Virus record (IMG/VR): IMGVR_UViG_3300047546_001263
Span: 1-64,000 of that record
DNA length: 64,000 nt
Source: a virus
Reading direction: 5' to 3' (one strand)
The notes under the pieces were generated by a model that ran no database searches, was not told the DNA's origin, and saw only the letters and a list, made by a program, of their open reading frames with translations. Of this stretch, positions 26,911 to 40,666 are shown in pieces. Made by a program: the position numbers and the translations under genes. Positions within the stretch are counted from its first letter, which is position 1. Each line of letters starts with the position of its first letter.

Positions 26911-27666
26911 TTAAGAAACACAAGTAAATCCGTAGTTTATTGAATAAGTACAGCCACCGAATGTATTAACATACCCGCCAACAACACATACATTTTGAGA
27001 TTGGTAAGCTCCTAAGTAATAACTTTGATAAGATCCACCGCAAGCTGTATATGCAACAAAGCCTCCACAGGTTCCTCCGTTTACTTGCATATAATAGCAA
27101 ACTTGAGTAGTTGGTGCTCCGTATCCTGAAGGAGGAGCGACTGGTGAAGGTGTTGGGCTTGGAGTAACTGGACTAGGTGTTACCGGAGCTGCTGTTGGTG
27201 CTGCTGTTGGTGACGGAGTTACAGGTGCTGCTGTCGGAGCTGCAGTAGGACTAGGGGTTACCGGTGCGGCTGTTGGACTAGCTGTTGGACTAGCTGTAGG
27301 ACTAGGAGTAGGAGATTCAGACGGTGGAGCTGTTGGACTAGGAGTCGGTGATGGTGTTACTGGAGCGGCAGTTGGGGCAGGTGTTGGAGCTGGTGTTACT
27401 GGAGCGGCAGTTGGAGCGGCTGTTGGAGCAGGTGTAGGTACTATAGAATACACAAATAAATCTTCTGTACTACATTTACCTGTACTTTTAACATATAACA
27501 CATGGTACAGAGTATCTACATCTATATAATACCCGTCTACTAATTGCTGTCTTGTTACTCCAGTTGCAATTCTATTAGGGGCTGATATAGCTGTATGATA
27601 TACATCAAAAGGTCCTACTGTAGATCCTGCTGTTGTAATCTGTATTTTTAATGTTCTATTTGCCAT
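26911..27666 (-). CDS. Pro/Thr/Ala/Ser-rich protein with Cys-rich C-terminal domain (probable virion fibre/decoration)
   Basis: N-domain [12 protein letters not shown] shared with neighbour; [10 protein letters not shown] repeats. Confidence 0.7.
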
Positions 27667-27673
27667 TTAATTA

Positions 27674-28447
27674 CTATTGAATAGCTTCTACTTGACCTGA
27701 TCCTGGGGCTGGAGTTTCGCCTCCATAGCCTATAGTTGGTGCGAATCCACCACCACCACCTCCTCCACCTCCGGTAGGTGCTGGTGCGGTTGGTTCAGGT
27801 GTAACTGGACTAGGTGTTACAGGGCTAGGAGTAACTGGTGCTGGGTAAGTTGGACTAGGAGCTGGTGCTACTGGATTACTTACCGGGCTTGATACTGGTG
27901 ATGCATATACAGGAGCAGGGTTAGGTGCTGTAGTAGGTGCTGCTGTTGGTTCCGGAGTTACTGGTGCTGGAGTAACTGGAGCAGGAGTAACTGGAGCAGG
28001 AGTAGTTGGTTCCGGAGTTACTGGACTAGGTGTTACCGGAGCTGCTGTTGGTTCCGGAGTTACTGGTGCAGGAGTAACTGGTGCTGGAGTTACAGGAGCT
28101 GGAGTTACAGGAGCTGGAGTAACTGGTGCTGCTGTAGGGCTAGCAGTCGGGCTAGGAGTCGGAGCTGCTGTTGGACTAGGAGTAGGAGCTGCTGTAGGTG
28201 CAGCTGTAGGTGCACCTGTTGGTACAGTTAAATTAGCTACTCCTGTATTCCCACATACACCATTACTAACTACATAGAAGTCGTTTGTACCATCTGGTAC
28301 AGTTATATTAAATGGAGTAGTCATCTGGGTTCTTGTAAGTCCAGAGATTACTAGGTTAGACGGATTATTTGGATCAGTATGATAGAGTGAAAACGGACCT
28401 GCGTCTGTTCCTATCGATGTTCCTGTTATAGTTACTGTTATTGGCAT
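27674..28447 (-). CDS. Pro/Thr/Ala/Ser-rich protein
   Basis: N-domain IGTDAGPFSLYHT; VTPAP repeats. Confidence 0.7.
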   Translation of the reverse strand: MPITVTITGTSIGTDAGPFSLYHTDPNNPSNLVISGLTRTQMTTPFNITVPDGTNDFYVVSNGVCGNTGVANLTVPTGAPTAAPTAAPTPSPTAAPTPSPTASPTAAPVTPAPVTPAPVTPAPVTPAPVTPEPTAAPVTPSPVTPEPTTPAPVTPAPVTPAPVTPEPTAAPTTAPNPAPVYASPVSSPVSNPVAPAPSPTYPAPVTPSPVTPSPVTPEPTAPAPTGGGGGGGGGFAPTIGYGGETPAPGSGQVEAIQ

Positions 28448-28490: not shown

Positions 28491-28706
28491 TTAAATTGCT
28501 GAAAGTATCTCAGCTTTTTTAGCTATGTATTCTTCCTCTGTTGCAGTTATAAAAGGTCCTTGTGCTAATACATTATCGTATAATGTAGAATTACCTCCAT
28601 CATGTCTGATTAACATCTGACCTTCTTTGACTAAACATACTGTCAAGCTTTTTGTTTCGTCGTCTAATTTTATTACTCTATCTGAGTCTTTTAAGTATTG
28701 TATCAT
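28491..28706 (-). CDS. hypothetical protein
   Basis: ORF within operon. Confidence 0.55.
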   Translation of the reverse strand: MIQYLKDSDRVIKLDDETKSLTVCLVKEGQMLIRHDGGNSTLYDNVLAQGPFITATEEEYIAKKAEILSAI

Positions 28707-28721: not shown

Positions 28722-31622
28722 TTATGCAAATTCTTCAGGTCCGCCACCACAAGATACACAAGAGTAATCACATGGTCCTACTTGAGCTTGACATCCATAT
28801 CCACAATCACAGTTATAATATCCTCCTGTTGGTGGTGGTATGTAAATTGGGGCTGCTTGTGGTGCTGGGGTATTTCCACAGAAGAACATACAATCTGCAA
28901 AAGAAGTAAATTCTCCTGCTCCTGGGTTAGAATAACAGTTTCCATTTCCATCACATGACCAGTCGTAAGTTACTACTGGAGCTGCTGTAGGTGAAGCTGT
29001 CGGACTAGCTGTTGGACTAGCTGTAGGAGCTGGATATGGAGCTGGTGTTACAGGAGCGGCTGTAGGGCTAGCTGTCGGACTAGGAGTCGGAGCGGCTGTA
29101 GGGCTAGCAGTTGGCGCTGGTGTAACTGGTGCTGCTGTAGGAGCTGCTGTAGGAGCTGGTGTTACAGGAGCGGCAGTAGGTGCAGCTGTTGGTGCCGGAG
29201 TCACAGGAGCGGCAGTAGGTGCAGCTGTTGGTGCCGGAGTCACAGGAGCTGCTGTAGGTGCACTGGTTGGGCTAGCTGTAACTGGAGCTGGATATACCGG
29301 ACTAGGTGTAGTTGGAGCTGCTGTAGGAGCTGCCGTTGGACTAGCTGTAGGTGAAGGAGTTACAGGAGCTGGAGTAACTGGTGCTGGAGTAACTGGTGCT
29401 GGAGTTACAGGAGCGGCTGTTGGAGCTGCTGTTGGTTCAGCAGTCGGACTAGGTGTAACTGGTGCTGCTGTAGGTTCTGAAGTCACAATTGGACTAGGTG
29501 TTACAGGAGATCCTCCACCTCCTTCAAATCCGGCTGGTGCAGGGTTAAATCCTCCGCATGAACCTAAACATTCATTATAGGTATAGCTACCAACTCCTGG
29601 TCCCATATAAACACAGCTACCGTTTATACAGTCATAATCAAATGATGAAAATGGTGCTGAAATCGGAGCTGAAACTGGTGCTGCTGTTGGTTCAGCAGTC
29701 GGACTAGGAGTTGGACTAGGTGTTACCGGTGAAGGATATACTGGGCTAGGTGTTACCGGTGATGGAGTAACTGGTGCTGCTGTAGGTGCTGCTGTAGGAG
29801 AAGCTGTCGGACTAGGAGTCGATACCGGAGCTGGATATCCAGGGGCAGGTGTTACTGGTGCTGGTGTTACTGGACTAGGAGTCGGTGCGGCTGTTGGTGA
29901 AGCTGTAATTGCAACACAATATTGACTACATTCTTGTAATGTACTATAAGATCCTGCTCCTGGTCCCATATAAGTACATTGACCATCTACGCAATCCCAA
30001 TCAAAAGAAGAGGCTGTAGGACTTGGTACAACTGTTGGTTCAGGTGTTACAGGAGCTGCTGTCGGACTAGGAGTCGGACTAGGTGTTACTGGTGAAGCAT
30101 ATGAAGGACTAGATACCGGAGCCGATACTGGGCTAGGGGTTACTGGTGCTGGTGTTGTAGGAGCAGGTGTTACGTCAGTAGGGGCTGGAGTTGTAGGAGA
30201 TGGTGTTACTGGTGAAGCATATGAAGGACTAGATACCGGAGCCGATACCGGACTAGGGGTAGTAGGAGCTGGTGTAACTCCAGTAGGTGCTGGAGTTGTA
30301 GGAGATGATACCGGTGATACATAAGTAGGACTAGGTGTTACTGGTGATGGAGTAACTGGTGATGGAGTAACTGGTGATGGAGTAACTGGTGCTGGTGTTG
30401 GACTAACTATTAAACATCCACCATCAGTAGTACAAGTACCACCTTGTTCAAATATGTAAGCTCCACCTGTTACTTCTACACCTCCTTGAATAAAGACTGG
30501 GATATTATATGGAGAAGTTAAGCTTACGCAAATTCCAGCAGTATACGTACCGTCTCCATTATCCATAGTATCTAAACTATTGATTAACCGATCTGTTACT
30601 ATATCATCATAAGATGTTCTATATCTTACATATAAGTCATTCGGTACAGTACTGTATGTTATTGTATAGCAATTACCTGTAGGTAATACCGGAGCCGGTG
30701 TTGGACTAGGAGTCGGTGCAGCTGTCGGTGCTGCTGTAGGAGCTGGTGTTACTGGTGCAGCGGTAGGTTCAGCAGTTGGTGACGGAGTCACAGGAGCTGG
30801 TGTTACCGGAGCTGGTGTTACTGGAGCATTAGTTGGAGCAGCAGTAGGTTCTGCAGTCGGACTAGGAGTTACCGGTGCGGCAGTAGGTTCAGCAGTTGGT
30901 GACGGAGTCACAGGAGCTGCTGTTGGAGCATTAGTCGGTGCTGGTGTTGGACTAGGAGTAGGAGCTGTAGTAGGACTAGGAGTTGGTGCAGCAGTAGGAG
31001 CGCTAGTTGGTGCTGCTGTCGGGGCAGGGGTATTTAATAAAGCAATAAACTTAATATCACATTCTGCTCCTGTTATATCTAAGGTACAATCTCTTTCAAA
31101 TACAGCATATAAAGTATTAATACTACTACTATAAGGTACGTTAATTAAATGGTTGGTTGAATAAGTAGGAAAGTTAATATCAAATGCAGCAGCTCCTTGA
31201 GGGCGTGCTGAGTTCCATTTTCTACCTGTTACCCATTTCTTAAGTACAAAGCCTGCTGATCCGGTAGCTAAATAACTAGCAGACGGGTAAGGTTCATAAA
31301 TAAAAACTTTATTAGATCCAGAAATACCACCTTCGTATTGTTGTGCATATGAAGAAGTAAGTGCTGGACCTACTAATCTAACTGCTCCTGTTGGAAACAT
31401 TACTGCAGATCCGTCTGTGTCTGAACCTGTTACAAATGCATTGAAGTAGAAGCCCCATTTACCGCGAAAATAATCCATATCATCTTCGACTGTATAAAAG
31501 CCTTGTCTAGCTGGCCAGACATGTGAATGCAGACCCTGTAAATCATTTTCAACAAGAAAATCATTTAAGTGATCGTCAACATTTATTCCACTACCGGTAT
31601 TGGGGAACTGATAACTTGGCAT
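28722..31622 (-). CDS. large PAST-rich extensin/mucin-like protein with three Cys-rich modules
   Basis: Extensive AP/TP/SP repeats; [WY]xC..G.C....PG.G.[YF]....C...C three times; no signal peptide. Confidence 0.75.
29164..29249. repeat. perfect 39-bp tandem repeat (2.2 copies) within PAST-rich gene
   Basis: acaggagcggcagtaggtgcagctgttggtgccggagtc x2. Confidence 0.85.
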
Positions 31623-31659: not shown

Positions 31660-32631
31660 TTAAGACTCTATTTTACTTGCTATCCATTTATAAGTTTCAG
31701 TTAAACCTATATGTAGAGGTTGAGATGGTGCCCAACCTAACTTCTCTTTAATCAAAGTGTTGTCTGATGTTCTACCTCTCACTCCTTGTGGGCCTGGTAT
31801 ATTCTTAATTTCAATATTCTTATTTGCTAGACTAGCTACTAACTTAGCTAACCCGTTCATTGAGATAATCTCTTCTGATCCTATATTAATAGGTTCTTTA
31901 TAGTCCGAATTCATCAATCGTCGAACGCCTTCTACAGCTTCATCTATATAGAGGAACGAACGGGTTTGTAAACCATCACCCCACACTTCGATTTCGCCAT
32001 TTGTAGGGGTTTTAGCAACCTTGCGACATATTGCTGCTGGTGCTTTCTCTTTTCCTCCGTCAAATGTACCTTCTGGTCCAAATATATTATGGAAACGAGC
32101 GATTCGTATATCTATACCGTAGTTTCGGTTATAAGTTGCGTATAAACGTTCTGAAAATAGCTTTTCCCATCCATACTCTGAATCAGGTTGTGCTGGGTAA
32201 ACTGAATCTTCTTTGCAGTTTGGATTTTCAGGGTCTAACTGGTTATGCTCGTTATAAACACAAGCAGATGATGCATAGAATATCTTTTTAACGTTTTTCT
32301 TTTGTGCTTCGTTTAAAACGTTCAGATTTATTAACATAGAGTTGTGAACTACATCTGCATCATGATCTCCGGTGTTGATATAACCTGCTCCTCCCATATC
32401 TGCTGCTAATTGGTAAACCTCATCAAAAGGTTCTTGGAAAGGTGCGTACATTATAACTGATGTCTTCAAAGGATCTCGCAAATCAGCAATAACAAAGTCA
32501 TCTGCTGTTGAATCTGAGAAGTCTGGGTATTTAATATCTACTCCTCTCACCCAGTATCCTTCTGATTTTAATCTTGTAACTAAATGTGAACCGATAAAAC
32601 CACCGGCACCTAATACTAATGCTGTTTTCAT
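31660..32631 (-). CDS. GDP-mannose 3,5-epimerase-like SDR
   Basis: GAGGFIG, LAADMGGAGYI, ASSACVY, YGWEKLFSE, GGKEKAPAAICRK, GPQGVRGR. Confidence 0.88.
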   Translation of the reverse strand: MKTALVLGAGGFIGSHLVTRLKSEGYWVRGVDIKYPDFSDSTADDFVIADLRDPLKTSVIMYAPFQEPFDEVYQLAADMGGAGYINTGDHDADVVHNSMLINLNVLNEAQKKNVKKIFYASSACVYNEHNQLDPENPNCKEDSVYPAQPDSEYGWEKLFSERLYATYNRNYGIDIRIARFHNIFGPEGTFDGGKEKAPAAICRKVAKTPTNGEIEVWGDGLQTRSFLYIDEAVEGVRRLMNSDYKEPINIGSEEIISMNGLAKLVASLANKNIEIKNIPGPQGVRGRTSDNTLIKEKLGWAPSQPLHIGLTETYKWIASKIES

Positions 32632-32635: not shown

Positions 32636-34198
32636 TTATTTTTTAATATAGTAATCTTCTAATACTAATCCATCCATTTGTGTGTTATTCAACATCCAAA
32701 CTGCGTCTTTGTAGCTGTTTAGTATTGGCTTACCTCCTATATTAAAGGAAGTATTTAATAACACACCTACACCTGTTCTTTCATGTATTAAAGTTAATAA
32801 GTTGTAAAGGAATGGATTCTGTTCTTTAGTAACTGTCTGTACTCTAGCTGTTCCATCTACGTGAGTAACAGCTTTCAAGACATCTCTATACTCTTCTCTA
32901 ACTTTAGGACAAAAAGACATCCATCTAGACTCCTGATCGAATTCAAAATACTTGTTTACATCTTCTAGTCTAACCACTGGTGCGAAAGGTCTGTAGTATT
33001 CTCTATTTTTTACCTTAGCATTCAAAGTATCTTTCATACCCGGTAAGCAAGGATTGCATAAAATACTTCTGTTACCTAACGCTCGTGGTCCTACTTCTGA
33101 TCTACCTCTAACTACTCCTATTATTCTACCTTTTATAATCTCGTCTGCTAAAGCTTCAGTAACTTTTTCTGCTTTATAGCTTTGTACGTAGTCTTGAAGT
33201 TGAAACTTATCCCAAGCTTCCGGACCTGCGTATGTTGCATCAAAGGCTTCTTTAGGTTTAAGAAAATCTAACATAAACCCTAATGAAAGCCCACAGTCAC
33301 TTGGGTTTGGTGGTATAAAAGTCTTTGTTATGTTGTTTAATTTTGTATTATTAAGAATATTTAAACCACATCCTCCAGCGATTGCTAAATTATTATTAGC
33401 TTTTGCTATATCATCTTTACTTACTTCGAAAAAAATATCTTCAAATACTTTTTGAGAAGTAGCTGCTATATCTAACTCTAGTTGACCAGTAAGTTCATCT
33501 GGGAATCCTAAAGCTTCTTTCATTTTATTGTAATTAAACTCTCTTAATTCCCTAGTACCGTGGTGTCCTGTGTAAAACTCTCTCATAACAGGAATAAATT
33601 CTTCTCGAATATTTCCATATCCACATAATCCCATTAACTTACCTGCATAAACTAGGTAAGCTTTAACCCAATCTTCACGTTTAATAGAAGAACAATAATG
33701 TCCTATTTCAGCATACTTTTCTCCGATATTATAATCGTAATTCATCCAAGAAAATTTAACTCCTTCTTCTCTAGTAGCTGTATAAAAATTAAAACATCCA
33801 TCGTTTCCTCCGCCGTCGTATGTAATTATTACAGCTTCTTGTAGGTCTGATTGGTAAAAAGCTCCTGAAGCATGACCAAACTGGTGAAATACTTCTACTA
33901 ATTTCTTAGCATTAAAAAAAGATAAAAACTTACTTTCACTTCCTAAGTAGTTTATATAGGTACGGGTATCTTCTTGATTGCAAATTAAATGTTCGTATTC
34001 TTCTGCTCCGTACTTATCTTTAAAATACTTTAGAATATCTTTTATTACATTAAAAGGTTCGTGAGCAGGTAAATACCAAATTAAACCTCCGTTTTTGATA
34101 TTAGTGTAACGTTCTACTTCTAATACTTCTAGTATCTTCCCATCTTTAGCTAAAGTGAGAGAAGCGTTATGTCCTGAATATAGTGCTAAATTATACAT
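32636..34198 (-). CDS. carbamoyltransferase (NodU/CmcH family)
   Basis: GHNAS, HQFGHA, DGGG, AGKLMGL, GPRALGNRS, RPFAP, LNTSFN. Confidence 0.92.
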   Translation of the reverse strand: MYNLALYSGHNASLTLAKDGKILEVLEVERYTNIKNGGLIWYLPAHEPFNVIKDILKYFKDKYGAEEYEHLICNQEDTRTYINYLGSESKFLSFFNAKKLVEVFHQFGHASGAFYQSDLQEAVIITYDGGGNDGCFNFYTATREEGVKFSWMNYDYNIGEKYAEIGHYCSSIKREDWVKAYLVYAGKLMGLCGYGNIREEFIPVMREFYTGHHGTRELREFNYNKMKEALGFPDELTGQLELDIAATSQKVFEDIFFEVSKDDIAKANNNLAIAGGCGLNILNNTKLNNITKTFIPPNPSDCGLSLGFMLDFLKPKEAFDATYAGPEAWDKFQLQDYVQSYKAEKVTEALADEIIKGRIIGVVRGRSEVGPRALGNRSILCNPCLPGMKDTLNAKVKNREYYRPFAPVVRLEDVNKYFEFDQESRWMSFCPKVREEYRDVLKAVTHVDGTARVQTVTKEQNPFLYNLLTLIHERTGVGVLLNTSFNIGGKPILNSYKDAVWMLNNTQMDGLVLEDYYIKK

Positions 34199-35117
34199 TA
34201 ACTAGTTTTTTATTTATAAAATCAATACCTGCATAATCTGCGTATTGTTGTAATGTTCTCTGTGTTCCTAATCCGTACTTACCTAAATCTCCTCCTTCTA
34301 TTAACATCCTAAGCCTTTCTATTGCAGCTCTATGTCTTGTATGTGCCTCTATGCTAGGTGCTGTATTGTAGTGTTTTTTAGGTACTGCATTATGTGTTCT
34401 ATGCCATGCAACTATTTGCGAAGGTGTATATAAGTCATAACCGTGAGTATAAGACCTGATAGCTAAAGCAAACTCTTCCCCTGTATAATAGTGTTCTGGG
34501 TCTTGCTCAACCTTAACTACCCATTCACCGTCTGTAAATATAAAACCTCCGTATAATAATATAATACTTTTTGGCTGAAATCCAATGTTTATTTCATTTT
34601 CGTATCCCCCATAGTTAGGCCAGTATTCTGCTGTTAAGCTTGCAATCTTAGGAATGTTCATTCTATCTAAATTATTAAAATGTCGATATGAATGATCTAC
34701 TCCAGTTTCATCATCTCTATGATAAGGTGGTGGTAAGAAAGATAGTAATGGTTTAATTCCTGTAGAAGCTAAAGCTTCGTAATCTTTTATAAGAATCTCA
34801 TCCCAATCTTGTATAAACCGAGTATGTGAATCTACCTGTAAACTATATTTCTCTCCATTATAGTTAGACTGTGCAATCTGTCTCGCCCAACATCCACCTT
34901 TTGATTCTTCATAAGGAAATTTTATAACTTTTAAATTATAAAAATCTACAAGATCGTCTATACAACTCTTTCCTGTTTTAACTTTATCGTCGTACTGAAG
35001 GCATACTGAGAAGTGCAAGTTTTCAGGGTACTTAGCAGTCCTTATACAGTCTAAGATTGTGAAACGTATTTCATAATCTAAGTAACTAGCAATAGCTATA
35101 AAAATTGTATTATCCAT
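34191..35117 (-). CDS. GT60/Gnt1-like (Skp1-hydroxyproline GlcNAc-transferase-like) glycosyltransferase
   Basis: IFIAIASYLD, SKGGCWAR, LQVDSHTRF..DWD, YTGEE...RSYTHGYDLY.P. Confidence 0.82.
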   Translation of the reverse strand: MDNTIFIAIASYLDYEIRFTILDCIRTAKYPENLHFSVCLQYDDKVKTGKSCIDDLVDFYNLKVIKFPYEESKGGCWARQIAQSNYNGEKYSLQVDSHTRFIQDWDEILIKDYEALASTGIKPLLSFLPPPYHRDDETGVDHSYRHFNNLDRMNIPKIASLTAEYWPNYGGYENEINIGFQPKSIILLYGGFIFTDGEWVVKVEQDPEHYYTGEEFALAIRSYTHGYDLYTPSQIVAWHRTHNAVPKKHYNTAPSIEAHTRHRAAIERLRMLIEGGDLGKYGLGTQRTLQQYADYAGIDFINKKLVNV

Positions 35118-36657
35118 TCTTCTTAATATAATAGTCTTCTAATAAAAGAGCATCCATTTGTTTATTATCCAAAACCCAAAGTGCATCTTCATACGTATTC
35201 AGAATTGGTTTTCCTGCTATATTAAAAGATGTATTTAAAATTACTCCTATACCTTTTTGGTTATGCATTTCAGTCAACAAGTCGTATAGAAATTCATTTT
35301 GTTTTCTTGTAACCGTCTGTACTCTAGCAGTTCCGTCAACATGAGTAATAGCTTTTAAAATATCTTTATATTCGTCTTTAACTTCAGGACAAAAAGACAT
35401 CCATCTTGATTCTTTATCCCAGTTAAAGTACTTATTTACATCTTCTAATCTAACTACTGGTGCGAAAGGTCTGTAGTATTCCCGTCCTTTCACTTTAGCA
35501 TTTAGAGTATCTTTCATCTCTCCAATAGTTGGATCACATATGATACTTCTATTTCCTAAAGCTCTTGGACCGTGCTCTGATCTACCTCTAACTACACCAA
35601 CTATTTCTCCTTTTATTAATTTCTGAACTAGTTCTGCTATTTCAATCTTAGTACCTTTTCTCTCATAAAGTAATTTAGGAAGTAACTTTCTATCCCAAAC
35701 TTCCGGACCTAGATAAGTTGTGTCTACCGGTACGTGTGGTCTCATTTTACTACAAACTAACCCTACTGCTAATCCTGTATCGTTTGGATTAGGAGTCACA
35801 AAAGTCTCTCTCTTCAGAGCTAGTTTAGTGTTTAGTAGTATATTTAACCCACATCCTCCGGTAATAATAAGCGGTAAGTCGTTATGGAGTTCTAAGATAT
35901 TTCTTGTTTCTTCTTCAAATAACTGCTCAAAGACATACTGATTAGTTGCAGCTAAGTTCTTTGCATAGTTACCTTCATATCGTATCTGTTCCGATTCTAT
36001 GTTGAATATCTTCATAAAGCGAGTTAATGCTTCACTTATATTATCTGTTGTATTAGAAGCATAGAATTCTCGAAAAGGTTGTACTAAAGAATCATCTACT
36101 TTTCCAAAACCAGCTAATCCCATTAATTTTCCAGCATATACTAGATTACCTGTATAAATCCATTCTTGTTTTATATCTGAGATGAAGTGAGCAGGCATCA
36201 TATAAGAAACAGCGTAGTCTTTTTTACCTACGTATATCTTCTCTATAGGAGTTTCACTTCTTTTATCCCCTAAGTAAATGTTAAAGAAACCTTCGTCACT
36301 TCCTCCATCAAAAGAAATAATTAAAGCTTTTTCAAAGTTTGATTGGTATAGTCCGGAATATGCATGAGCTTCGTGATGAGGTAACCACTGGTAATTACCG
36401 GCTGGGAATATCTTCCACATCTCTTTATCTACCGAGTTGTATACTACATTATCGTATTTTTCTACTCCGTATTTTGTCTTAAAATAGTCTTTAATTTCTG
36501 TAAGTAGTTCAACTATATTCTCATGATGCCCCCAATAAAAAAAAGCAGCATTTTTTACATTTATTAATCGCTCTAACTCTACTACTTCTAAAACTTCTCC
36601 TTTGTAGGAAATAGCTAAGCTAGCATTATGCGACCCAAAAAAACCTAAATTAAACAT
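35110..36657 (-). CDS. carbamoyltransferase (NodU/CmcH family), paralog of 32636-34198
   Basis: GSHNAS, HHEAHA, DGG, AGKLMGL, GPRALGNRS, LNTSFN. Confidence 0.92.
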   Translation of the reverse strand: MFNLGFFGSHNASLAISYKGEVLEVVELERLINVKNAAFFYWGHHENIVELLTEIKDYFKTKYGVEKYDNVVYNSVDKEMWKIFPAGNYQWLPHHEAHAYSGLYQSNFEKALIISFDGGSDEGFFNIYLGDKRSETPIEKIYVGKKDYAVSYMMPAHFISDIKQEWIYTGNLVYAGKLMGLAGFGKVDDSLVQPFREFYASNTTDNISEALTRFMKIFNIESEQIRYEGNYAKNLAATNQYVFEQLFEEETRNILELHNDLPLIITGGCGLNILLNTKLALKRETFVTPNPNDTGLAVGLVCSKMRPHVPVDTTYLGPEVWDRKLLPKLLYERKGTKIEIAELVQKLIKGEIVGVVRGRSEHGPRALGNRSIICDPTIGEMKDTLNAKVKGREYYRPFAPVVRLEDVNKYFNWDKESRWMSFCPEVKDEYKDILKAITHVDGTARVQTVTRKQNEFLYDLLTEMHNQKGIGVILNTSFNIAGKPILNTYEDALWVLDNKQMDALLLEDYYIKKNG

Positions 36658-36658: not shown

Positions 36659-39412
36659 TTACCTTTTTAACTTTATATTAAAATAACTTTCTAAATCTTC
36701 TACCGTTCTAACATGTGTTTGTTTCAACAGAAAATCATTTACTAATTCTCGTGCATAGTCTTCTACATAATACTTACCGTTGTGTTCTCTATAAGGTTTA
36801 TCAGTTGCTGCTACCTTAAAGTTGTAATTATGCCATACTGTAGCTAAAGATGTTACTTTTAAATTCCACCCTTTTAAATAACTTAAAAAAGTTTGAAAGT
36901 CTTCTTCTCCATTAAACCTAATGTTATCAGGTAATCTTACTTCTTCTATCCACTGTCTTCTAGTAAATAAAAATCCTGCCGCTGCCCATCGAGTATCAAC
37001 TACTTCGTAGTCATTTAAGGTAGGTAGGTTTTCAGCTATACATCTATTATCATCCGGACTTGTTTCTAGTAAAAATTTCCTAATACGTAAAGGTGTGTTA
37101 TTAGGTTTATTTAAGTACTGCTTTTCGTAATCTGGAACGTCGAAATGATTAGGGTATGTTGTTAGTATTACTTTGTCTTGCTCAATACTGTTATACTGGT
37201 TTATTAGTATTGCATCCCAGGCTTGTCTAAATCTACTATGTGAATCTACTTGAAGAAAGTAATCTTCGTTTCTCACAAGCTCATTCTTTATTCTATTTCT
37301 TGCATATACAACCCCTTTAGCTTGCTCTTTAGGTGTAAAAATAATTCTTAAATTTGGAAAGTTATACTCTTTCAATTTAGTATAAGCTTCTTCTGTGTCT
37401 TGTATATTTACTCCTACAAAAACTCTACTAGGGTCAATAGCTTCTTCATATAAACTTTTTAAAGTATCTATAAGTTGAGAATCGCAGTAACTTGCTATTG
37501 ATACGAATATGTTACCATTTCCAAAACTCCAACTATCGTTATACTCTCTAAACCAGTTACCTTTAAAATGACACTCTGCAATAAATGGTATTTGATGTCC
37601 TAGGTTAAATTTTTCAGTATTAATATAGTAATTTTTATCCTCAATGTCAGACATATATCCTCTCATTCTATAAATGTAAGAAGACAGTGTTGAATGACTA
37701 TTACCTATAAACTTAATACTACGAGTACATATAAACTGCTCAATAATAGGAATCCAGTTATTATCAAATTCATTATAGATACTAACTTGATTCTTTAAAT
37801 CTTCATAGAAAGAAACTCGATAAAGACCCATAAGAGGTCTAAAAAATTCTTTATCTCTATGGTCTGTTGCAATGTAAAGCTTACTTCCCTGAGGGATTAT
37901 ATCTTTTATATTCTCTAAAATTTGCTCACAGCTAATAAATAATTCTTTATATTGAAAGTCATTTCTACGAATATGAATAGAGTAGTAATCTCTATCTCCT
38001 AACTTATTAATAAATTGCCAAGCTAAATCAAAAATATCTGTACGATATCTTACATGTTTAGCGATAAGTTTTTTGATCTCTACATCTAAACTTGTAAACA
38101 AGGTCTGATGAGTAACACCTAGAAGATTAGATTCAAGGAAAATAAATTCTTCATCTGTAAAGTATTCTTCACTTCTTAATACTGGGCGGTGTTTATGAAA
38201 CTTAACAGGCGGGTTAATTTTTTCAAAATTCATAACGTGTAAAACTGCATCATAATCTAATACTTTACAAATACTTTTTACACTGTCGTAATTATGTTCT
38301 AATCCTTTTTCTTCACAGAACTTACTAAACGGTATGGAAATTACTCCTAAATCTGAAGTATCAAAAAAAGATTCCATACTAGAGTTCCCTTCTAGTAAGT
38401 ACATTTTATATTCTGGTGTTAAAACAAGCTTTCGATTAGTTAAGTATGCTATACATACTGCTAACTCTAACGACATTCTTATATTGTTGAAACCACCAGG
38501 CCAAGGTCTAAATAAAATATAACCTTTACTACCATCATAGAATTTAAAGATGCTAGAAAAATCCCACTTATTGTAGTATATATAATCTGTTCTATACTGA
38601 TCTACACTCGTAACCATCTTATTACTTGCTTCGCTTATTATATTTGATAAATCGTATTTTTGTGTTTGATCAAAGGTATGATCTTGCTTAAAGAACAGCT
38701 TGTTTCCTTGCTTATCTGAAATTACATTAGGGTAATGTAGTATACTTCCTATTGTAGACCTACCGGTATCGTTCCATGCAGTACAGGTTCCAATATCCTC
38801 AACTAAATCAACTTTTATATTAGAATCTTTAATTGCATAATCTAATCCCCACATTTCTGCTTCCCATCTTCCTTCTTTCTTTCTGATCTGCTCACAATAC
38901 TCTGTATATTTTTTGTAAAATTTCTTTAGAGTATTAAACTTTAAAGCAAATGGGTACATTATCCCTTGTGCATTATGGATATCTTTTTCTCGATCTTCCC
39001 ATCCGTTTAGTGGAACAAAGTGAATGAACTTTTGACCGATGATATGATTGTCTTCTAATTCAAAATCAACTGCTTTTATAAACAGCATATCTGGGTCCAG
39101 GAATAATAACTTATCATTATCTTGGAAGTAGTTATTTTCGCATAACCATTCTACAGATTTATATTTATTAGGGATACCACCCCACCAGTCATCGTTAGCT
39201 GTTTGCCAATTATGAGCATAGTCTGGTTGATCTATTACTATAGCGTCAGATAAAAAACTAAAATCTGGGTTTTCATGTCTGTGTCCGTAATCTCCGGAGA
39301 GTAGAACGACTAATTTACCTTTTTGATTTACCTTCTTTAAGGACCAGTGTAATAGTTTTAACTGCCATGCTTGATACTCACATCTACTAGTTCCGACAAC
39401 AATATAGTCCAT
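36659..39412 (-). CDS. three-domain glycosyltransferase: HPAT/SGT1-like + O-fucosyltransferase-like + GT60-like
   Basis: N: YQAWQ..NK....WL..LFLDPDMLF..WEAEMWG; middle: GGFNNIRM, HIRRNDF, YIATD, IEQFIC, STLS; C: IFVSIASY, QVDSHSRF, FNGEE. Confidence 0.75.
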   Translation of the reverse strand: MDYIVVGTSRCEYQAWQLKLLHWSLKKVNQKGKLVVLLSGDYGHRHENPDFSFLSDAIVIDQPDYAHNWQTANDDWWGGIPNKYKSVEWLCENNYFQDNDKLLFLDPDMLFIKAVDFELEDNHIIGQKFIHFVPLNGWEDREKDIHNAQGIMYPFALKFNTLKKFYKKYTEYCEQIRKKEGRWEAEMWGLDYAIKDSNIKVDLVEDIGTCTAWNDTGRSTIGSILHYPNVISDKQGNKLFFKQDHTFDQTQKYDLSNIISEASNKMVTSVDQYRTDYIYYNKWDFSSIFKFYDGSKGYILFRPWPGGFNNIRMSLELAVCIAYLTNRKLVLTPEYKMYLLEGNSSMESFFDTSDLGVISIPFSKFCEEKGLEHNYDSVKSICKVLDYDAVLHVMNFEKINPPVKFHKHRPVLRSEEYFTDEEFIFLESNLLGVTHQTLFTSLDVEIKKLIAKHVRYRTDIFDLAWQFINKLGDRDYYSIHIRRNDFQYKELFISCEQILENIKDIIPQGSKLYIATDHRDKEFFRPLMGLYRVSFYEDLKNQVSIYNEFDNNWIPIIEQFICTRSIKFIGNSHSTLSSYIYRMRGYMSDIEDKNYYINTEKFNLGHQIPFIAECHFKGNWFREYNDSWSFGNGNIFVSIASYCDSQLIDTLKSLYEEAIDPSRVFVGVNIQDTEEAYTKLKEYNFPNLRIIFTPKEQAKGVVYARNRIKNELVRNEDYFLQVDSHSRFRQAWDAILINQYNSIEQDKVILTTYPNHFDVPDYEKQYLNKPNNTPLRIRKFLLETSPDDNRCIAENLPTLNDYEVVDTRWAAAGFLFTRRQWIEEVRLPDNIRFNGEEDFQTFLSYLKGWNLKVTSLATVWHNYNFKVAATDKPYREHNGKYYVEDYARELVNDFLLKQTHVRTVEDLESYFNIKLKR

Positions 39413-40666
39413 TTATTGAGGTACAAATTTATAATCTGCTAATGTATAATGTAAAAAGAAATTTCTAAAGAATTCTCCTTCAAAAGGTTCAATACGTCCA
39501 TGTTTGTTAGTAGCAGATTCATATAGAATCATTTCCCCTGGTTCTGCATAAACTTTATGCCATCTACCTAAATGGTCTTGAATATCTAATGGCCAATCTC
39601 TATCTACCTGCTTATCTATTATTACTATAGATGATATGTGGTGAGTTACTAAAGTATCTGTATGTGGTTCTAGTATAGCCCCTCTTTTATAAGATCTGAT
39701 ACCGTAAATCCATTTCGGTACTAAACGTTCTTTATTACCTATAAACTCTTCGTGGATAGGTTGTAACTCTTCTGCAATAATCTCTCTAATACGGGTAAAA
39801 GCATCCATACTAAAGATTTCTACCGGTGCATTACCTTGATTATCGTGTATAAAATCAGTAATACCGTTCCAATGTTCTGCTCGTACTGTAGGTTTCAGTA
39901 AGTTGTATGCTTCTGTAATCAACTGGAAGGTCTTTTCAGGTACTTTTACAACTTTAAATCCTAGTTCAGAAAGCTTTGGTAAATCTTCTTTCTTTGAAAA
40001 TACTTTTTGTACTGGTTGCTGTGGTTGTGTCATTTCTTGATATTCTTTTGCAAGTCTAGCATCTTCAGCACTATTGAATACATTTTCTCTAAACCATTTT
40101 GTAATAATTACTTTTCTACCTTTTCTTACAGGTAAACCTGCATGTAAAGCGGCTGAGTTTTCAGTTCCTGTACCGTTAGAGTTTTTCCAAACTACTGCAG
40201 TACCTTTTACTGGTGTAAATGTCTTTTGTAAGGTAGGAAAATCTGTTTCACCTCCTTCTTCAACATCATTAAGGTATATCATAAACGTCCATGTTCTTTG
40301 GCCGCTAGACAAACAATGGTTATGGTATGCTTCTTTTCCAAAAGCATCTTGGTGGTGTCTAAATTCTTGACCTACCTCATATATTTGACCTTGTGTTGGT
40401 TCTGAATAAGGAGCTTCTATTCCTAATTCTGTATACATTTTTTGATTAACACTACTGATAATCGGATCTGTATCATGTAAAACTGCTGTAGAACTAGTAC
40501 GGCCTTCGTCGTATTTTACAGATTGGGCTCCACTACCTGCTACGCTTGATCGAACACTTCCGTGTTCTGTTAGTCTTACAATATGATCACATTCTTCGTT
40601 TGTTAAGAACTGAGGGATTGTGAATATTTCCAATCCATGGCTGTTTTCTATATATACTCTTTCCAT
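39413..40666 (-). CDS. prolyl 4-hydroxylase fused to a second 2OG-Fe(II) oxygenase domain
   Basis: FLTNEEC, RTSS, HQD, GQRTWTFMIYLNDVEEGGETDFP, LHAGLPV..GRK...TKW; second domain HTD...HGR. Confidence 0.88.
   Translation of the reverse strand: MERVYIENSHGLEIFTIPQFLTNEECDHIVRLTEHGSVRSSVAGSGAQSVKYDEGRTSSTAVLHDTDPIISSVNQKMYTELGIEAPYSEPTQGQIYEVGQEFRHHQDAFGKEAYHNHCLSSGQRTWTFMIYLNDVEEGGETDFPTLQKTFTPVKGTAVVWKNSNGTGTENSAALHAGLPVRKGRKVIITKWFRENVFNSAEDARLAKEYQEMTQPQQPVQKVFSKKEDLPKLSELGFKVVKVPEKTFQLITEAYNLLKPTVRAEHWNGITDFIHDNQGNAPVEIFSMDAFTRIREIIAEELQPIHEEFIGNKERLVPKWIYGIRSYKRGAILEPHTDTLVTHHISSIVIIDKQVDRDWPLDIQDHLGRWHKVYAEPGEMILYESATNKHGRIEPFEGEFFRNFFLHYTLADYKFVPQ

What the first reader, a model, noticed from the sequence alone, without database searches (positions are those of the whole stretch)
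26911..40666. Phage-encoded hydroxyproline-rich glycoprotein system: extensin/AGP-like substrates plus their modifying enzymes
Seen in one contiguous 14-kb block: three proteins dominated by AP/TP/SP repeats with no signal peptide, a prolyl-4-hydroxylase, a GT with HPAT/SGT1-like, O-fucosyltransferase-like and Gnt1-like domains, a second Gnt1-like GT, two carbamoyltransferases and a GDP-mannose 3,5-epimerase. Known: in plants and algae P4H converts Pro in such repeats to Hyp, which HPAT (GT95) glycosylates while SGT1 (GT96) modifies adjacent Ser; Gnt1 (GT60) adds GlcNAc to Hyp of Skp1; GME makes GDP-L-galactose/L-gulose; NodU enzymes carbamoylate sugars. Inference: the phage hydroxylates and densely glycosylates its own fibre/decoration proteins in the cytoplasm, forming stiff polyproline-II bottle-brush stalks. 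These could shield the virion or mimic algal wall glycoprotein to engage the glycan-uptake receptors of a Bacteroidota host. I know of no description of such a substrate-plus-enzyme module in a bacteriophage.
Basis: partly seen in the sequence, partly recalled or inferred. Interest (0 to 1): 0.93.

Follow-up and report, generated by a model that had tools for sequence, protein, structure and literature searches.

The report
Phage proline-hydroxylase and protein-glycosylation module
A freshwater phage encodes three proline/alanine/threonine/serine-repeat proteins next to a prolyl hydroxylase, protein-type sugar transferases and sugar-tailoring enzymes, so it probably gives its own fibre-like proteins a plant-like sugar coat, though no chemistry has been measured.

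Summary
The block 26911-40666 (minus strand) of a 101-kb freshwater myovirus-type contig holds three signal-less Pro/Ala/Thr/Ser-repeat ("PAST") proteins and seven enzyme activities. These are a two-domain 2OG oxygenase (collagen/algal-type P4H plus a second oxygenase), a 917-aa triple glycosyltransferase (HPAT-like, POFUT-like and GT60 domains), a separate GT60, two O-carbamoyltransferases and a GDP-mannose 3,5-epimerase.

Comparative evidence links enzymes to repeats:
- The P4H-GT917 pair is a fixed cassette, and PAST genes stay beside it through rearrangements in other phages.
- The combination recurs in diverged bacterial loci, where the PAST proteins carry Tat-like signals.
- 37 of 75 viral GT60 loci hold a PT-repeat ORF, against 0 of 116 arbitrary loci.
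- Ala-Pro-rich repeats go with P4H; Thr-Pro repeats go with GT60 alone.
- The epimerase occurs only with the POFUT-bearing enzyme.
- In other lineages the cassette abuts tail-fibre and sheath genes.

Cytoplasmic hydroxylation and O-glycosylation of the phage's own PAST proteins is the best reading (about 0.6). The linkage type, the sugars and a virion location are inferred. No paper in the held library describes this. The scan has flagged the same kind of module on other genomes before.

The parts
39413..40666 (-). Two-domain 2OG-Fe(II) oxygenase (417 aa). Its stop codon abuts the start codon of the GT917 gene.
   Evidence: PF13640 62.9 bits. AlphaFold2 model pLDDT 82.8. Found as a fixed pair with GT917 in every P4H-bearing viral locus fetched (L024-L100).
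40052..40666 (-). N-domain (aa 1-205): collagen/algal-type prolyl 4-hydroxylase.
   Evidence: phmmer: 3itq E=1.5e-24, 7zsc 1e-19, 5c5t 3e-17, 2jig 6e-17. VIA-align: Chlamydomonas P4H 2jij Z=22.4, rmsd 1.9, 172 aligned; PBCV-1 vCPH 5c5t Z=18.9. H105, D107, H175 and K185 are invariant in 13 homologs.
39416..39979 (-). C-domain (aa 230-417): second double-stranded beta-helix (DSBH) 2OG oxygenase, substrate unknown.
   Evidence: No Pfam or PDB sequence hit. Fold: 6n1f Z=15.3, 2rg4 14.2, then SnoK, AviO1, AspH and PhyH at Z 11-13. H335, D337, H389 and R401 are invariant. A homolog sits beside an O-FucT gene in cyanophage S-SCSM1.
38543..39412 (-). GT917 domain 1 (aa 1-290): HPAT (GT95)-like retaining-type GT-A.
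   Evidence: The window's own sequence has no Pfam hit. Orthologs pass PF23452 HPAT: L032 41.9, L100 36.1, L031 31.9 and L034 27.6 bits against a cut-off of 23.9, covering HMM positions 3-257 of 307. The nearest ESM Atlas clusters carry PF23452. Fold: glycogenin 1zcu Z=15.3, Skp1 alpha-GalT 6mw8 Z=14.3. D106-P-D108 is invariant.
37541..38530 (-). GT917 domain 2 (aa 295-624): protein O-fucosyltransferase-like GT-B, a GDP-sugar user.
   Evidence: PF10250 86.6 bits against a cut-off of 31.5. The HxRRxD and FIG..ST.S motifs align to POFUT2 4ap6. Fold: POFUT2 5foe/4ap6 Z=17.3, 289 aligned; POFUT1 Z=13.9.
36662..37534 (-). GT917 domain 3 (aa 627-917): GT60 (Gnt1 / polypeptide HexNAc-transferase)-like GT-A.
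   Evidence: PF11397 134.6 bits. Best fold match is mucin-type polypeptide GalNAc-T1 8v9q, Z=17.8, 255 aligned. The D-x-H motif (D723, H725) is invariant.
35110..36657 (-). O-carbamoyltransferase b (515 aa).
   Evidence: PF16861 209 bits plus PF02543. phrog_1601. NodU-like at 174 bits, below the equivalog cut-off.
34191..35117 (-). Stand-alone GT60-like glycosyltransferase (308 aa). Overlaps both flanking carbamoyltransferase genes by 8 nt.
   Evidence: PF11397 156.8 bits. D96-S-H98 is invariant. More than 474 relatives in viral contigs.
32636..34198 (-). O-carbamoyltransferase a (520 aa).
   Evidence: PF16861 215 bits plus PF02543. NovN 9s2t E=3e-49, TobZ 3ven E=1e-45.
31660..32631 (-). GDP-mannose 3,5-epimerase (GME; 323 aa).
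   Evidence: Arabidopsis GME 2c59 E=1e-97, 330 bits; the next-best short-chain dehydrogenase scores 96 bits. GME-like genes occur in 8 of 18 GT917 loci and 0 of 59 GT60-only loci, and also in L346, L347 and L352.
28722..31622 (-). PAST3 (966 aa): orphan N-domain (aa 1-190), PAST stretches spanning aa 191-318, 407-540 (two overlapping scan segments), 570-661 and 705-889, a ~90-aa globular insert, three paralogous 4-Cys modules (aa 540-569, 661-689, 886-915) and a Cys-rich C-terminus.
   Evidence: Length varies among close relatives (739 aa in L007 and 841 and 792 aa in P0009 and P0010, against 966 aa here). Contigs of relatives often end inside it.
27674..28447 (-). PAST2 (257 aa): ~70-aa N-domain, PAST repeats aa 68-226, poly-Gly tail.
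   Evidence: The N-domain is paralogous to that of PAST1 (37% over 62 aa, E=7e-11).
26911..27666 (-). PAST1 (251 aa): ~72-aa N-domain, PAST repeats aa 71-187, 65-aa Cys/Gly/Tyr-rich C-domain.

Best explanation
The block is a co-directional, largely translationally coupled module. With it, the phage most likely modifies its own Pro/Ala/Thr/Ser-repeat proteins in the host cytoplasm.

Shown here (family and fold level): a collagen/algal-type prolyl 4-hydroxylase fused to a second 2OG oxygenase; a triple glycosyltransferase with HPAT-like, POFUT-like and GT60 domains; a further GT60; a GDP-mannose 3,5-epimerase; and two O-carbamoyltransferases.

Inferred sequence of events:
1. The P4H domain hydroxylates Pro in the X-Pro repeats, especially Ala-Pro, which has no other hydroxyl to carry sugar.
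2. The HPAT-like domain puts a first sugar on Hyp, while the GT60 domains put HexNAc on Thr/Ser (or Hyp), as their protist relatives do on mucin-like repeats and on Skp1.
3. The POFUT-like domain adds L-galactose (or L-gulose), made from host GDP-mannose by the phage epimerase.
4. The carbamoyltransferases O-carbamoylate sugar hydroxyls.
5. The second oxygenase domain performs a further, unknown oxidation of the protein or glycan.

The product would be mucin/AGP-like glycoprotein stalks that link small Cys-containing globular modules. They are probably displayed on the virion as fibre-like appendages, and they are released by lysis, so no export signal is needed.
For: Enzyme identities.

Coupling: gene gaps run from -8 to +37 nt from the P4H through PAST3.

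Conserved linkage through rearrangement:
- Window group: P4H-GT917-CarbT-GT60-CarbT-GME-PAST3-PAST2-PAST1.
- L028 and L031: PAST-P4H-GT917-GT60(-x)-CarbT.
- L033: PAST, PAST-x-P4H-GT917::GT60 fusion-CarbT.
- L100: PAST-x-P4H-GT917-x-CarbT-GT60.
- L035: PAST-GME-GT917-GT60-CarbT-CarbT.

Independent diverged loci at 27-36% identity and GC 0.35-0.53:
- L348 (a complete gammaproteobacterial chromosome), L350, L352 and L353 again combine PAST ORFs with the double oxygenase, GT917-like and GT60 genes, GME or CarbT.
- Their PAST proteins carry twin-arginine (Tat)-like signals. Tat exports proteins already folded or modified in the cytoplasm.
- L350 adds PqqD peptide-recognition domains, one of them fused to a P4H-like oxygenase.

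Statistics: PT-repeat ORFs occur in 37 of 75 GT60 loci against 0 of 116 arbitrary viral loci (Fisher p=8e-19; the loci are not phylogenetically independent). GT60 occurs in 8 of 120 (Thr-Pro)5 loci against 0 of 116.

Adjacency: a PT-repeat gene lies directly upstream of GT60 in 20 of 57 P4H-less loci.

Repeat chemistry tracks enzymes: AP makes up 36% of X-Pro dipeptides in P4H-positive loci and 26-34% in the bacterial P4H-positive loci, about 4% in GT917-only loci and 0% (median) in GT60-only loci, where TP is 90%.

GME goes only with the POFUT-bearing enzyme.

Structural context: tail-fibre, baseplate and tail-sheath genes flank the cassette in L028, L031, L033 and L100.

No export signals on the enzymes or PAST proteins.
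Against: - No chemistry of any kind: no Hyp, no glycan, no virion proteome.
- The L034-L036 lineage has PAST, GME, GT917, GT60 and CarbT genes but no P4H in 94-115-kb records that are about 50% complete. Hydroxylation may therefore be dispensable, or the gene lies in the missing half.
- Four P4H-GT917 lineages show no PAST ORF within the fetched flank.
- Most (Thr-Pro)5 loci in viral contigs (112 of 120) have no GT60 within about 5 kb, so PT repeats are often plain linkers.
- The PT-to-GT60 adjacency collapses into one clade at 60% single linkage. It is conserved synteny, not many independent events.
- Cultured phages with parts of the enzyme set (S-SCSM1, XacN1, Xoo-sp13) show no PAST neighbour. 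Comparable cyanophage islands could just as well serve cell-surface glycan metabolism (my own knowledge; nothing tested here rules it out).
- In this window the block lies between replication genes and exported-protein genes, not in the tail module.
- The window's own N-domain does not reach the HPAT Pfam threshold.
Confidence: 0.6

Rival explanations
1. The enzymes are an auxiliary-metabolism island that builds or remodels a host cell-surface glycan (LPS, capsule or another envelope polysaccharide) during infection. The PAST proteins are unmodified linker-rich proteins that merely sit next to it.
For: A comparable island lies beside the ribonucleotide reductase genes of cyanophage S-SCSM1, with 2OG oxygenases, O-FucT, carbamoyltransferase, NDP-sugar epimerases and many GTs but no PAST ORF. 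XacN1 and Xoo-sp13 have GT60 plus carbamoyltransferase without PAST neighbours. NodU/TobZ-type enzymes and GME act on sugars, not proteins.
Against: The characterised relatives of the matched families (P4H, HPAT, POFUT, GT60) all act on proteins (family knowledge; matches). PAST genes stay linked to the cassette through several rearrangements and in diverged bacterial loci. Ala-Pro content tracks P4H. GT60 and PT-repeat ORFs are associated compared with a random control. None of the enzymes has a membrane segment, as lipid-linked glycan assembly would usually require.
Confidence: 0.17
2. The P4H (and perhaps the second oxygenase) hydroxylates a host protein such as EF-Tu or a ribosomal protein to reprogram translation. 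The GTs act on other targets.
For: The best sequence and Foldseek matches include Bacillus anthracis P4H, deposited as modifying EF-Tu (5v7y). Pseudomonas PPHD in complex with EF-Tu matches at Z=15.8 (4iw3). The two-DSBH layout recalls Tpa1/OGFOD1, which hydroxylate ribosomal protein S23.
Against: The best structural match is the algal P4H, whose relative 3gze was solved with a (Ser-Pro)5 peptide, together with the chlorovirus P4H (Z=22.4 and 18.9, against 15.8 for the EF-Tu hydroxylase). The P4H is always fused head-to-tail in an operon with the HPAT-like GT. Ala-Pro-rich repeats co-occur with it. Unlike the non-catalytic C-domain of Tpa1/OGFOD1, the C-domain here keeps HxD...H...R.
Confidence: 0.08
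3. The glycosyltransferases and carbamoyltransferases hypermodify phage DNA bases, as in glucosyl-hydroxymethyl pyrimidine systems.
For: The block abuts ribonucleotide reductase and replication genes. The phage has a 7-deazaguanine pathway and a third carbamoyltransferase among those genes. Weak TAGT (TET-associated GT) matches occur in five GT917 homologs. In XacN1 the GT60-carbamoyltransferase pair lies near the DNA polymerase.
Against: All TAGT matches are below the curated cut-off (22 bits or less against 27.5) and fall on the generic GT-A part of the GT60 domain. The oxygenase is P4H-type, not TET/JBP (NgTET1 only Z=10.9 against 22.4 for the algal P4H). No hydroxymethylase or TET-like gene was seen in the block. 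The linkage to PAST genes has no explanation under this reading.
Confidence: 0.05

Closest known systems
Plant and green-algal hydroxyproline-rich glycoprotein pathway (P4H, then HPAT/GT95 and further GTs, on AGP/extensin repeats)
   Same: A collagen/algal-type P4H: best fold match is Chlamydomonas P4H-1, Z=22.4. An HPAT-family GT-A domain in the orthologs. Substrates with non-contiguous AP/SP/TP repeats, as in AGPs. GME supplies L-galactose, as in plants.
   Different: Cytoplasmic, with no signal peptides or membrane anchors, rather than in the ER/Golgi. Extensin-type SPPPP motifs are absent, and PP is 5% or less of X-Pro in the three window proteins. The P4H is fused to a second oxygenase. 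HPAT is fused to POFUT-like and GT60 domains. Carbamoyltransferases have no counterpart in the plant pathway (my own knowledge). The sugars are unknown.
Skp1 prolyl-hydroxylation and glycosylation pathway of Dictyostelium and Toxoplasma (PhyA P4H, Gnt1/GT60, then further cytoplasmic GTs)
   Same: Cytoplasmic P4H plus a GT60 enzyme acting on a protein, and multi-domain soluble GTs. The Skp1 alpha-GalT 6mw8 matches GT917 domain 1 at Z=14.3.
   Different: The P4H here is collagen-type, not PHD/PhyA-type (Dictyostelium PhyA 6t8m Z=14.2 against 22.4). The target would be hundreds of repeat prolines rather than one Pro of Skp1. There is no Skp1 homolog.
Protist GT60 polypeptide alpha-GlcNAc-transferases that start mucin-type chains on Thr/Ser (Trypanosoma cruzi, Dictyostelium); my own knowledge of the family
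   Same: Two PF11397 domains with the D-x-H motif. The closest solved fold is mucin-type GalNAc-T1. Thr/Pro-repeat proteins are encoded right beside GT60 in many phages.
   Different: The protist enzymes are Golgi membrane proteins; these are soluble. Donor and acceptor are untested.
Chlorovirus PBCV-1 prolyl 4-hydroxylase and the virus's Pro-rich repeat ORFs
   Same: A virus-encoded collagen-type P4H: 5c5t E=3e-17 and Z=18.9. It is active on Pro-rich repeat peptides (PMC7019647, citing Eriksson et al. 1999).
   Different: PBCV-1 infects a eukaryotic alga, its P4H's role is unknown, and no Hyp was found in virions (PMC7019647). It has no adjacent HPAT/GT60 cassette or substrate genes. Here the enzyme sits in an operon with GTs and candidate substrates in a bacteriophage.
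Mycobacteriophage virion glycosylation (Freeman et al. 2023, Cell Host Microbe; paper not held, cited in PMC12801897; content from my own knowledge)
   Same: A phage-encoded GT modifies the phage's own structural proteins in the cytoplasm.
   Different: Different GT families, short C-terminal extensions of capsid and tail-tube proteins rather than long PAST repeats, no prolyl hydroxylase, and no carbamoylation or GME.

Membership tests
Collagen-type prolyl 4-hydroxylase (P4Hc; PF13640 2OG-FeII_Oxy_3) | Sequence match above the curated threshold, with closest relatives being bona fide P4Hs | tested here: met
   PF13640 62.9 bits against a cut-off of 27. 3itq E=1.5e-24, 7zsc 1e-19, 5c5t 3e-17, 2jig 6e-17.
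Collagen-type prolyl 4-hydroxylase (P4Hc; PF13640 2OG-FeII_Oxy_3) | Fe(II) triad HxD...H and the 2OG-binding Lys | tested here: met
   H105, D107, H175 and K185 are invariant in 13 homologs and aligned to the B. anthracis P4H motif.
Collagen-type prolyl 4-hydroxylase (P4Hc; PF13640 2OG-FeII_Oxy_3) | DSBH fold of the P4H type | tested here: met
   2jij Z=22.4, rmsd 1.9, 172 aligned; 7zsc Z=19.6; 5c5t Z=18.9.
Collagen-type prolyl 4-hydroxylase (P4Hc; PF13640 2OG-FeII_Oxy_3) | Formation of 4-Hyp in X-Pro repeat peptides | not testable with these tools
   Needs an enzyme assay or mass spectrometry.
HPAT / CAZy GT95 (PF23452) | Match to the family HMM above the curated cut-off (23.9 bits) | tested here: inconclusive
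   The window's N-domain gives no hit even at E<=10. Four orthologs that are 36-50% identical and aligned over their full length pass: 41.9, 36.1, 31.9 and 27.6 bits over HMM positions 3-257 of 307. The nearest ESM Atlas clusters carry PF23452.
HPAT / CAZy GT95 (PF23452) | GT-A fold with a DxD motif | tested here: met
   Fold matches to retaining GT-A enzymes, Z=14-15 over aa 1-231. D106-P-D108 is invariant.
HPAT / CAZy GT95 (PF23452) | Transfer of L-arabinofuranose to peptidyl-Hyp | not testable with these tools
   Donor and acceptor are unknown. No UDP-arabinose genes were sought.
SGT1 / CAZy GT96 (peptidyl-Ser alpha-galactosyltransferase) | Sequence relationship to SGT1 | not tested
No SGT1 model or sequence was available.
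Protein O-fucosyltransferase family (PF10250; GT65/GT68-like GT-B) | HMM match above cut-off and conserved GDP-sugar motifs | tested here: met
   86.6 bits against 31.5. HxRRxD and the C-terminal ST.S motif align to POFUT2. Fold: POFUT2 Z=17.3, 289 aligned, 20% identity. All 14 homologs match.
Protein O-fucosyltransferase family (PF10250; GT65/GT68-like GT-B) | Acceptor is a folded EGF or TSR Cys-knot module (POFUT1/2) | not testable with these tools
   PAST3 has three small 4-Cys modules, but no relation to EGF or TSR was shown. PF10250 also covers plant wall-polysaccharide GTs (my own knowledge).
GT60 (PF11397, Gnt1 / polypeptide GlcNAc-transferase) | HMM match above cut-off and the D-x-H metal motif | tested here: met
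   156.8 bits (308-aa protein) and 134.6 bits (GT917 domain 3) against a cut-off of 21. D-S-H is invariant. Best fold match is GalNAc-T1, Z=17.8.
GDP-mannose 3,5-epimerase | Specific similarity to characterised GME well above other SDR epimerases | tested here: met
   2c59 E=1e-97, 330 bits, over aa 6-322; the next family (UDP-GlcA decarboxylase) scores 96 bits. No NCBIfam equivalog passes.
NodU/CmcH/TobZ O-carbamoyltransferases (PF02543 + PF16861) | Both family domains present | tested here: met
   NovN E=3e-49 and TobZ E=1e-45. The NodU equivalog cut-off is not reached (155-174 against 1000 bits), so this is family-level membership only.
Plant extensins | Ser-(Pro)3-5 repeats and a secretory signal peptide | tested here: not met
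   PP dipeptides number 0-2 per protein. No signal peptide.
TET-associated glycosyltransferase (TAGT, PF20691; DNA base GT) | HMM match above the curated cut-off (27.5 bits) | tested here: not met
   The best score in any homolog is 22.2 bits, on the GT60 domain. The window protein gives none.

The most novel reading that the evidence does not exclude
Phages and some bacteria own a genuine hydroxyproline-based protein O-glycosylation pathway homologous to the plant/algal P4H-HPAT system. It makes cytoplasmically assembled, L-galactose-containing, carbamoylated mucin/AGP-like glycoproteins, which are displayed on virions in phages and exported by the Tat pathway in bacteria. This would be a prokaryotic and viral class of hydroxyproline-rich glycoproteins. 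The second oxygenase domain would add a further, so far unknown, oxidative modification.
Probability: 0.35. Interest if true: 0.9.

Novelty: new variant of a known kind. Interest (0 to 1): 0.78.

Why it matters
Hydroxyproline-linked protein glycosylation is textbook biology for plants, algae and a few protists. Phage virion glycosylation is so far known from mycobacteriophages, with different enzymes.

- **A new home for the pathway.** A phage and bacterial module combining a true P4H, an HPAT-family domain, a POFUT-like and GT60 domains, GME and carbamoyltransferases with their probable substrates would extend that chemistry to prokaryotic viruses and bacteria.
- **Evolution.** It would give a possible relative or source of the plant GT95 family.
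- **Phage biology.** It would explain a widespread class of uncharacterised phage Thr/Pro-repeat proteins and "P4H-like" auxiliary genes.
- **Applications.** It offers soluble, cytoplasmic enzymes for making mucin/AGP-like glycoproteins in bacteria.
- **Ecology.** The phage group is common in freshwater: near-identical DNA occurs in runs of at least 14 studies. A glycan coat on its fibres could therefore matter for adsorption, grazing or particle stickiness.

Tried and rejected
- **Close cultured relatives.** A near-identity DNA search of INPHARED phages with the enzyme block found nothing.
- **PAST proteins.** Pfam and PHROGs give nothing real: only a sub-threshold Lysostaphin_N repeat match. 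phrog_15511 matches in other phages cover only the repeats.
- **PAST3 N-domain.** The ESM Atlas has no usable hit and structural rows are all below TM 0.35. The word-based homolog search found only two close relatives.
- **GT917 N-domain.** The word-based search returned only close fragments and no named HPAT or SGT1. PF23452 run on the window's own genome gave no match.
- **P4H C-domain.** No Pfam or PDB sequence hit. The PHROG label 'ferrochelatase' (phrog_2954 and 3531) is contradicted by the 2OG-oxygenase fold and is probably a propagated misannotation.
- **Dereplication.** A first pass using one representative per cluster hid the PT-to-GT60 adjacency, so it was redone per member. At 60% single linkage all adjacency falls in one clade, so I do not claim many independent origins.
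- **RNA runs.** RNA-library contigs from three studies cover parts of the enzyme genes at 99% identity or more. Contigs cannot show transcription or exclude carry-over DNA, so this is not used as evidence.
- **Promoter and terminator scan.** At shuffle level, so uninformative.
- **Literature.** Seven searches found no description of a phage or bacterial P4H plus GT plus repeat-substrate module. The library lacks most subscription journals.
- **Not attempted.** No complex prediction was run, because enzyme-substrate pairs are a poor use of that tool.

Full report
**What the window is.** The window is the first 64 kb of a 101,260-bp IMG/VR viral record, estimated about 58% complete. Nearly all genes are on the minus strand. 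PHROG matches show a tail sheath (61492-63237), DNA polymerase, DnaB, a UvsX-like recombinase, both ribonucleotide reductase subunits and 7-deazaguanine genes (GTP cyclohydrolase, a QueC-like gene). It is therefore a large myovirus-type phage. Near-identical DNA occurs in freshwater, river, reservoir and drinking-water metagenomes of at least 14 studies.

**Observation.**
- The three PAST proteins (26911-27666, 27674-28447, 28722-31622) have repeat segments that are 80% or more P+A+S+T.
- Their Pro is non-contiguous. Among X-Pro dipeptides, AP is 35-39%, TP 28-30%, SP 17-28% and PP 0-5%.
- The DNA repeats are imperfect, and every period is a multiple of three.
- Neither the PAST proteins nor the enzymes have a signal peptide or membrane segment.
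- Such ORFs are rare: none in 116 arbitrary viral loci totalling 1.05 Mb. In the whole 101-kb record they are only these three genes plus one linker in 18563-19897.
- Gene spacing from the P4H through PAST3 is -8 to +37 nt, so the array is a tightly coupled unit.

**The hydroxylase.**
- The 417-aa protein's N-half is a collagen/algal-type P4H by sequence: B. anthracis P4H E=1.5e-24, human C-P4H alpha-2 1e-19, PBCV-1 3e-17, Chlamydomonas 6e-17.
- It is also one by fold: Chlamydomonas P4H-1 Z=22.4, rmsd 1.9 Å; PBCV-1 Z=18.9.
- H105, D107, H175 and K185 are invariant in 13 homologs.
- New relative to the finding, the C-half (aa 230-417) is a second 2OG-Fe(II) oxygenase. It has no Pfam or PDB sequence hit, but a DSBH fold (6n1f Z=15.3; PhyH-, AspH- and EvdO-like enzymes at Z 11-13) and invariant H335, D337, H389 and R401.
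- Both halves always travel together.
- A stand-alone homolog of the C-half lies beside an O-FucT gene in cyanophage S-SCSM1. The PHROG label 'ferrochelatase' for this domain is probably wrong.

**The triple glycosyltransferase (917 aa).**
- Domain 3 is GT60: PF11397 134.6 bits, D-x-H motif, best fold match mucin-type GalNAc-T1 at Z=17.8.
- Domain 2 is POFUT-like: PF10250 86.6 bits, HxRRxD and ST.S motifs aligned to POFUT2, Z=17.3.
- Domain 1 has no Pfam hit in the window's own sequence. However, four full-length orthologs pass the curated HPAT threshold of PF23452 (41.9 to 27.6 bits against 23.9), and the nearest ESM Atlas clusters carry that family.
- The domain 1 fold is a retaining-type GT-A (glycogenin Z=15.3, Skp1 alpha-GalT Z=14.3) with an invariant DPD.
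- The 'HPAT-like' call is therefore supported through orthologs. 'SGT1-like' was not tested.
- Weak TAGT (DNA glycosyltransferase) hits are below cut-off and fall on the GT60 domain.

**The remaining enzymes.**
- 34191-35117 is a stand-alone GT60 (156.8 bits).
- 31660-32631 is a GDP-mannose 3,5-epimerase (Arabidopsis GME E=1e-97, against 96 bits for the next SDR family).
- The two carbamoyltransferases belong to the TobZ/NovN/NodU O-carbamoyltransferase family.
- GME-like genes occur in 8 of 18 GT917 loci and in 0 of 59 GT60-only loci, and again in L346, L347 and L352.
- L-fucose is 6-deoxy-L-galactose. The simplest inference is that GME supplies GDP-L-galactose (or L-gulose) to the POFUT-like domain.

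**Are the PAST proteins the substrates? Five independent lines say probably yes.**

1. *Linkage survives rearrangement.*
   - Window group: enzymes, then GME, then PAST3-PAST2-PAST1 (conserved in 19 loci of 83-99% identity).
   - L028 and L031: PAST-P4H-GT917-GT60.
   - L033: two PAST genes upstream of the P4H and a GT917::GT60 fusion.
   - L100: PAST-x-P4H-GT917.
   - L035: PAST-GME-GT917-GT60-CarbT-CarbT.
2. *The combination recurs in very diverged loci from cellular assemblies (27-36% identity, GC 0.35-0.53).*
   - L348, in a complete gammaproteobacterial chromosome: PAST, the double oxygenase, GT917-like, GT60.
   - L350, in a 712-kb Paraglaciecola scaffold: two PAST genes, GT917-like, GT60, the double oxygenase.
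   - L352: GT60, PAST, HPAT/O-FucT, the double oxygenase, GME.
   - L353: PAST, a P4Hc-type oxygenase, O-FucT, CarbT, PAST.
   - The PAST proteins in L348, L350 and L352 begin with twin-arginine (Tat)-like signals. Tat exports proteins that were folded or modified in the cytoplasm, which is what soluble modifying enzymes would need.
   - L350 also holds PqqD peptide-recognition domains, one fused to a P4H-like oxygenase, next to an Mrp-antiporter/NADH:quinone-oxidoreductase-type membrane subunit gene (PF00361). L348 holds a giant multi-GT protein and an MBOAT. These are cellular loci, not prophages.
3. *Association statistics (loci not phylogenetically independent).*
   - PT-repeat ORFs occur in 37 of 75 GT60 loci against 0 of 116 arbitrary loci (Fisher p=8e-19).
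   - GT60 occurs in 8 of 120 (Thr-Pro)5 loci against 0 of 116 (p=0.007).
   - In 20 of 57 P4H-less GT60 loci, the co-directional gene directly upstream is a PT-repeat protein (background 4.3% of genes). All of these fall in one broad clade at 60% linkage.
   - Those proteins are modular, carrying RCC1 propellers or P-domain beta-sandwiches.
4. *Repeat chemistry tracks enzyme content.* AP is a median 36% of X-Pro dipeptides in P4H-positive phage loci and 26-34% in the bacterial P4H-positive loci. It is about 4% in GT917-only loci and 0% (median) in GT60-only loci, where TP is 90%. Ala-Pro offers no hydroxyl unless the Pro is hydroxylated.
5. *Structural context.* L028 has a long-tail-fibre/baseplate-type protein directly before PAST. 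L031 has a virion structural protein and a tail-fibre protein just upstream of PAST, with one 240-aa gene between. L033 has a fibre-type protein downstream. L100 has the tail sheath and tape measure a few genes on.

**Anatomy of the candidate substrates.**
- PAST1 and PAST2 share a paralogous ~70-aa N-domain (E=7e-11).
- PAST3 has an orphan ~190-aa N-domain, PAST stretches, a ~90-aa insert and three paralogous 4-Cys modules.
- PAST3 length varies from 739 to 966 aa among close relatives. Assemblies often break in its repeats.

**Caveats.**
- No chemistry exists.
- The L034-L036 lineage lacks a P4H in records that are about 50% complete.
- Four P4H lineages show no PAST gene in the fetched flank.
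- Most PT-repeat loci lack GT60.
- Cultured phages with partial enzyme sets (S-SCSM1, XacN1, Xoo-sp13) have no PAST neighbour. A host-glycan role for some family members remains possible.
- In this window the block lies between replication genes and an exported-protein block, not in the tail module. Virion display rests on synteny in other lineages.
- Host assignment is weak. GT917 homologs at 48-50% identity lie on short contigs binned into Saprospiraceae MAGs and on a contig of a Bacteroidetes single-cell genome.

**Comparison with the known.** It works like a hybrid of three systems: the plant/algal HRGP pathway (P4H plus HPAT), the protist cytoplasmic Skp1 pathway (P4H plus GT60) and mucin-type initiation by GT60. 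It differs in several ways:
- It is soluble and cytoplasmic.
- The P4H is fused to a second oxygenase.
- Three GT families are fused in one chain.
- It adds GME and carbamoyltransferases.
- It encodes its probable substrates alongside.

PBCV-1 has a viral P4H of unknown role, and no Hyp has been detected in its virions (PMC7019647). Mycobacteriophage virion glycosylation uses other enzymes and other targets. Seven literature searches found no description of such a module in phages or bacteria.

**Earlier notes of this scan.** They describe the same kind of cassette on other genomes. They agree with this reading but are not independent evidence.

**Verdict.** The best reading, at about 0.6, is cytoplasmic prolyl hydroxylation and O-glycosylation of the phage's own PAST proteins. 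It is a new variant of known kinds of system, of high interest, and directly testable by co-expression and mass spectrometry.

Noticed in passing
window 28494-28706 (-): A small ORF of about 71 aa lies in the 274-nt gap between PAST3 and PAST2, followed by a promoter-like TTGACT-16-TATATT site just upstream of PAST2. Its function is unknown.
   Followed up: no
window 18563-19897 (-): The only other ORF in the 101-kb record with a PAST segment (aa 103-161). It lies in the block of signal-peptide-bearing genes at 18.5-26.8 kb.
   Followed up: no
window 11949-13628 and 15155-16000 (-): A third NodU/TobZ-type carbamoyltransferase and a second NDP-sugar epimerase/dehydratase sit among the 7-deazaguanine (GTP cyclohydrolase, QueC-like) genes, away from the block. 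Their targets are unknown.
   Followed up: partly
L350 (Paraglaciecola MAG scaffold) 3929-17738: A bacterial version of the module. It has two small PAST proteins with Tat-like signals (NRRDFV and TRRDFV), a GT917-like gene, GT60, a nucleotidyltransferase, a PqqD-domain protein and a P4H-like oxygenase fused to PqqD. It resembles a RiPP-style leader-guided modification system.
   Followed up: partly
L348 (Ca. Azotimanducaceae chromosome) 734-18661: A chromosomal locus with a Tat-signal PAST protein, the double oxygenase, a GT917-like gene, a 1319-aa protein carrying GT92, GT2, GT10 and GT25 domains, an MBOAT acyltransferase and a GT60.
   Followed up: partly
L104 (XacN1) 9001-12718; L105 (Xoo-sp13) 8998-12693: In cultured Xanthomonas jumbo phages a GT60-like gene is directly followed by a 765-aa carbamoyltransferase, near the DNA polymerase and RNase H. 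No PAST ORF lies within 9 kb. GT60 plus carbamoyltransferase is a recurrent pair: 23 of 75 viral GT60 loci.
   Followed up: partly
L227 (Synechococcus phage S-SCSM1) 9425-25011: A cyanophage island beside the ribonucleotide reductase genes, with four 2OG oxygenases, O-FucT, carbamoyltransferase, mannose-6-P isomerase, three epimerases and five GTs. Genes annotated 'ferrochelatase' there, and in phrog_2954 and 3531, look like 2OG oxygenases of the P4H C-domain type.
   Followed up: partly
L009, L012, L013, L038 (about 9174-9998 of L038): In some close relatives, the stand-alone GT60 and carbamoyltransferase a are replaced by variants only 48-51% identical. In these and in the 99%-identical L005, an extra gene (274 aa in L038) lies between carbamoyltransferase b and GT60. 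The rest of the block stays 83-99% identical, which suggests cassette swapping inside the module.
   Followed up: no
L344-L347, L351 (Saprospiraceae MAG contigs, Bacteroidetes SAG AG-470-E04): P4H plus GT917::GT60 fusions (1218-1533 aa) at 48-50% identity, on low-GC contigs assigned to Saprospiraceae/Bacteroidota. These are probably phage contigs binned with, or sequenced from, host cells, which gives a host hint for this phage group.
   Followed up: partly
L112 (297-kb viral contig IMGVR_UViG_3300002835_000001): An ORF with weak similarity to the PAST1 N-domain (E=1.4e-5) in a jumbo-phage contig that also carries several (Thr-Pro)n stretches.
   Followed up: no
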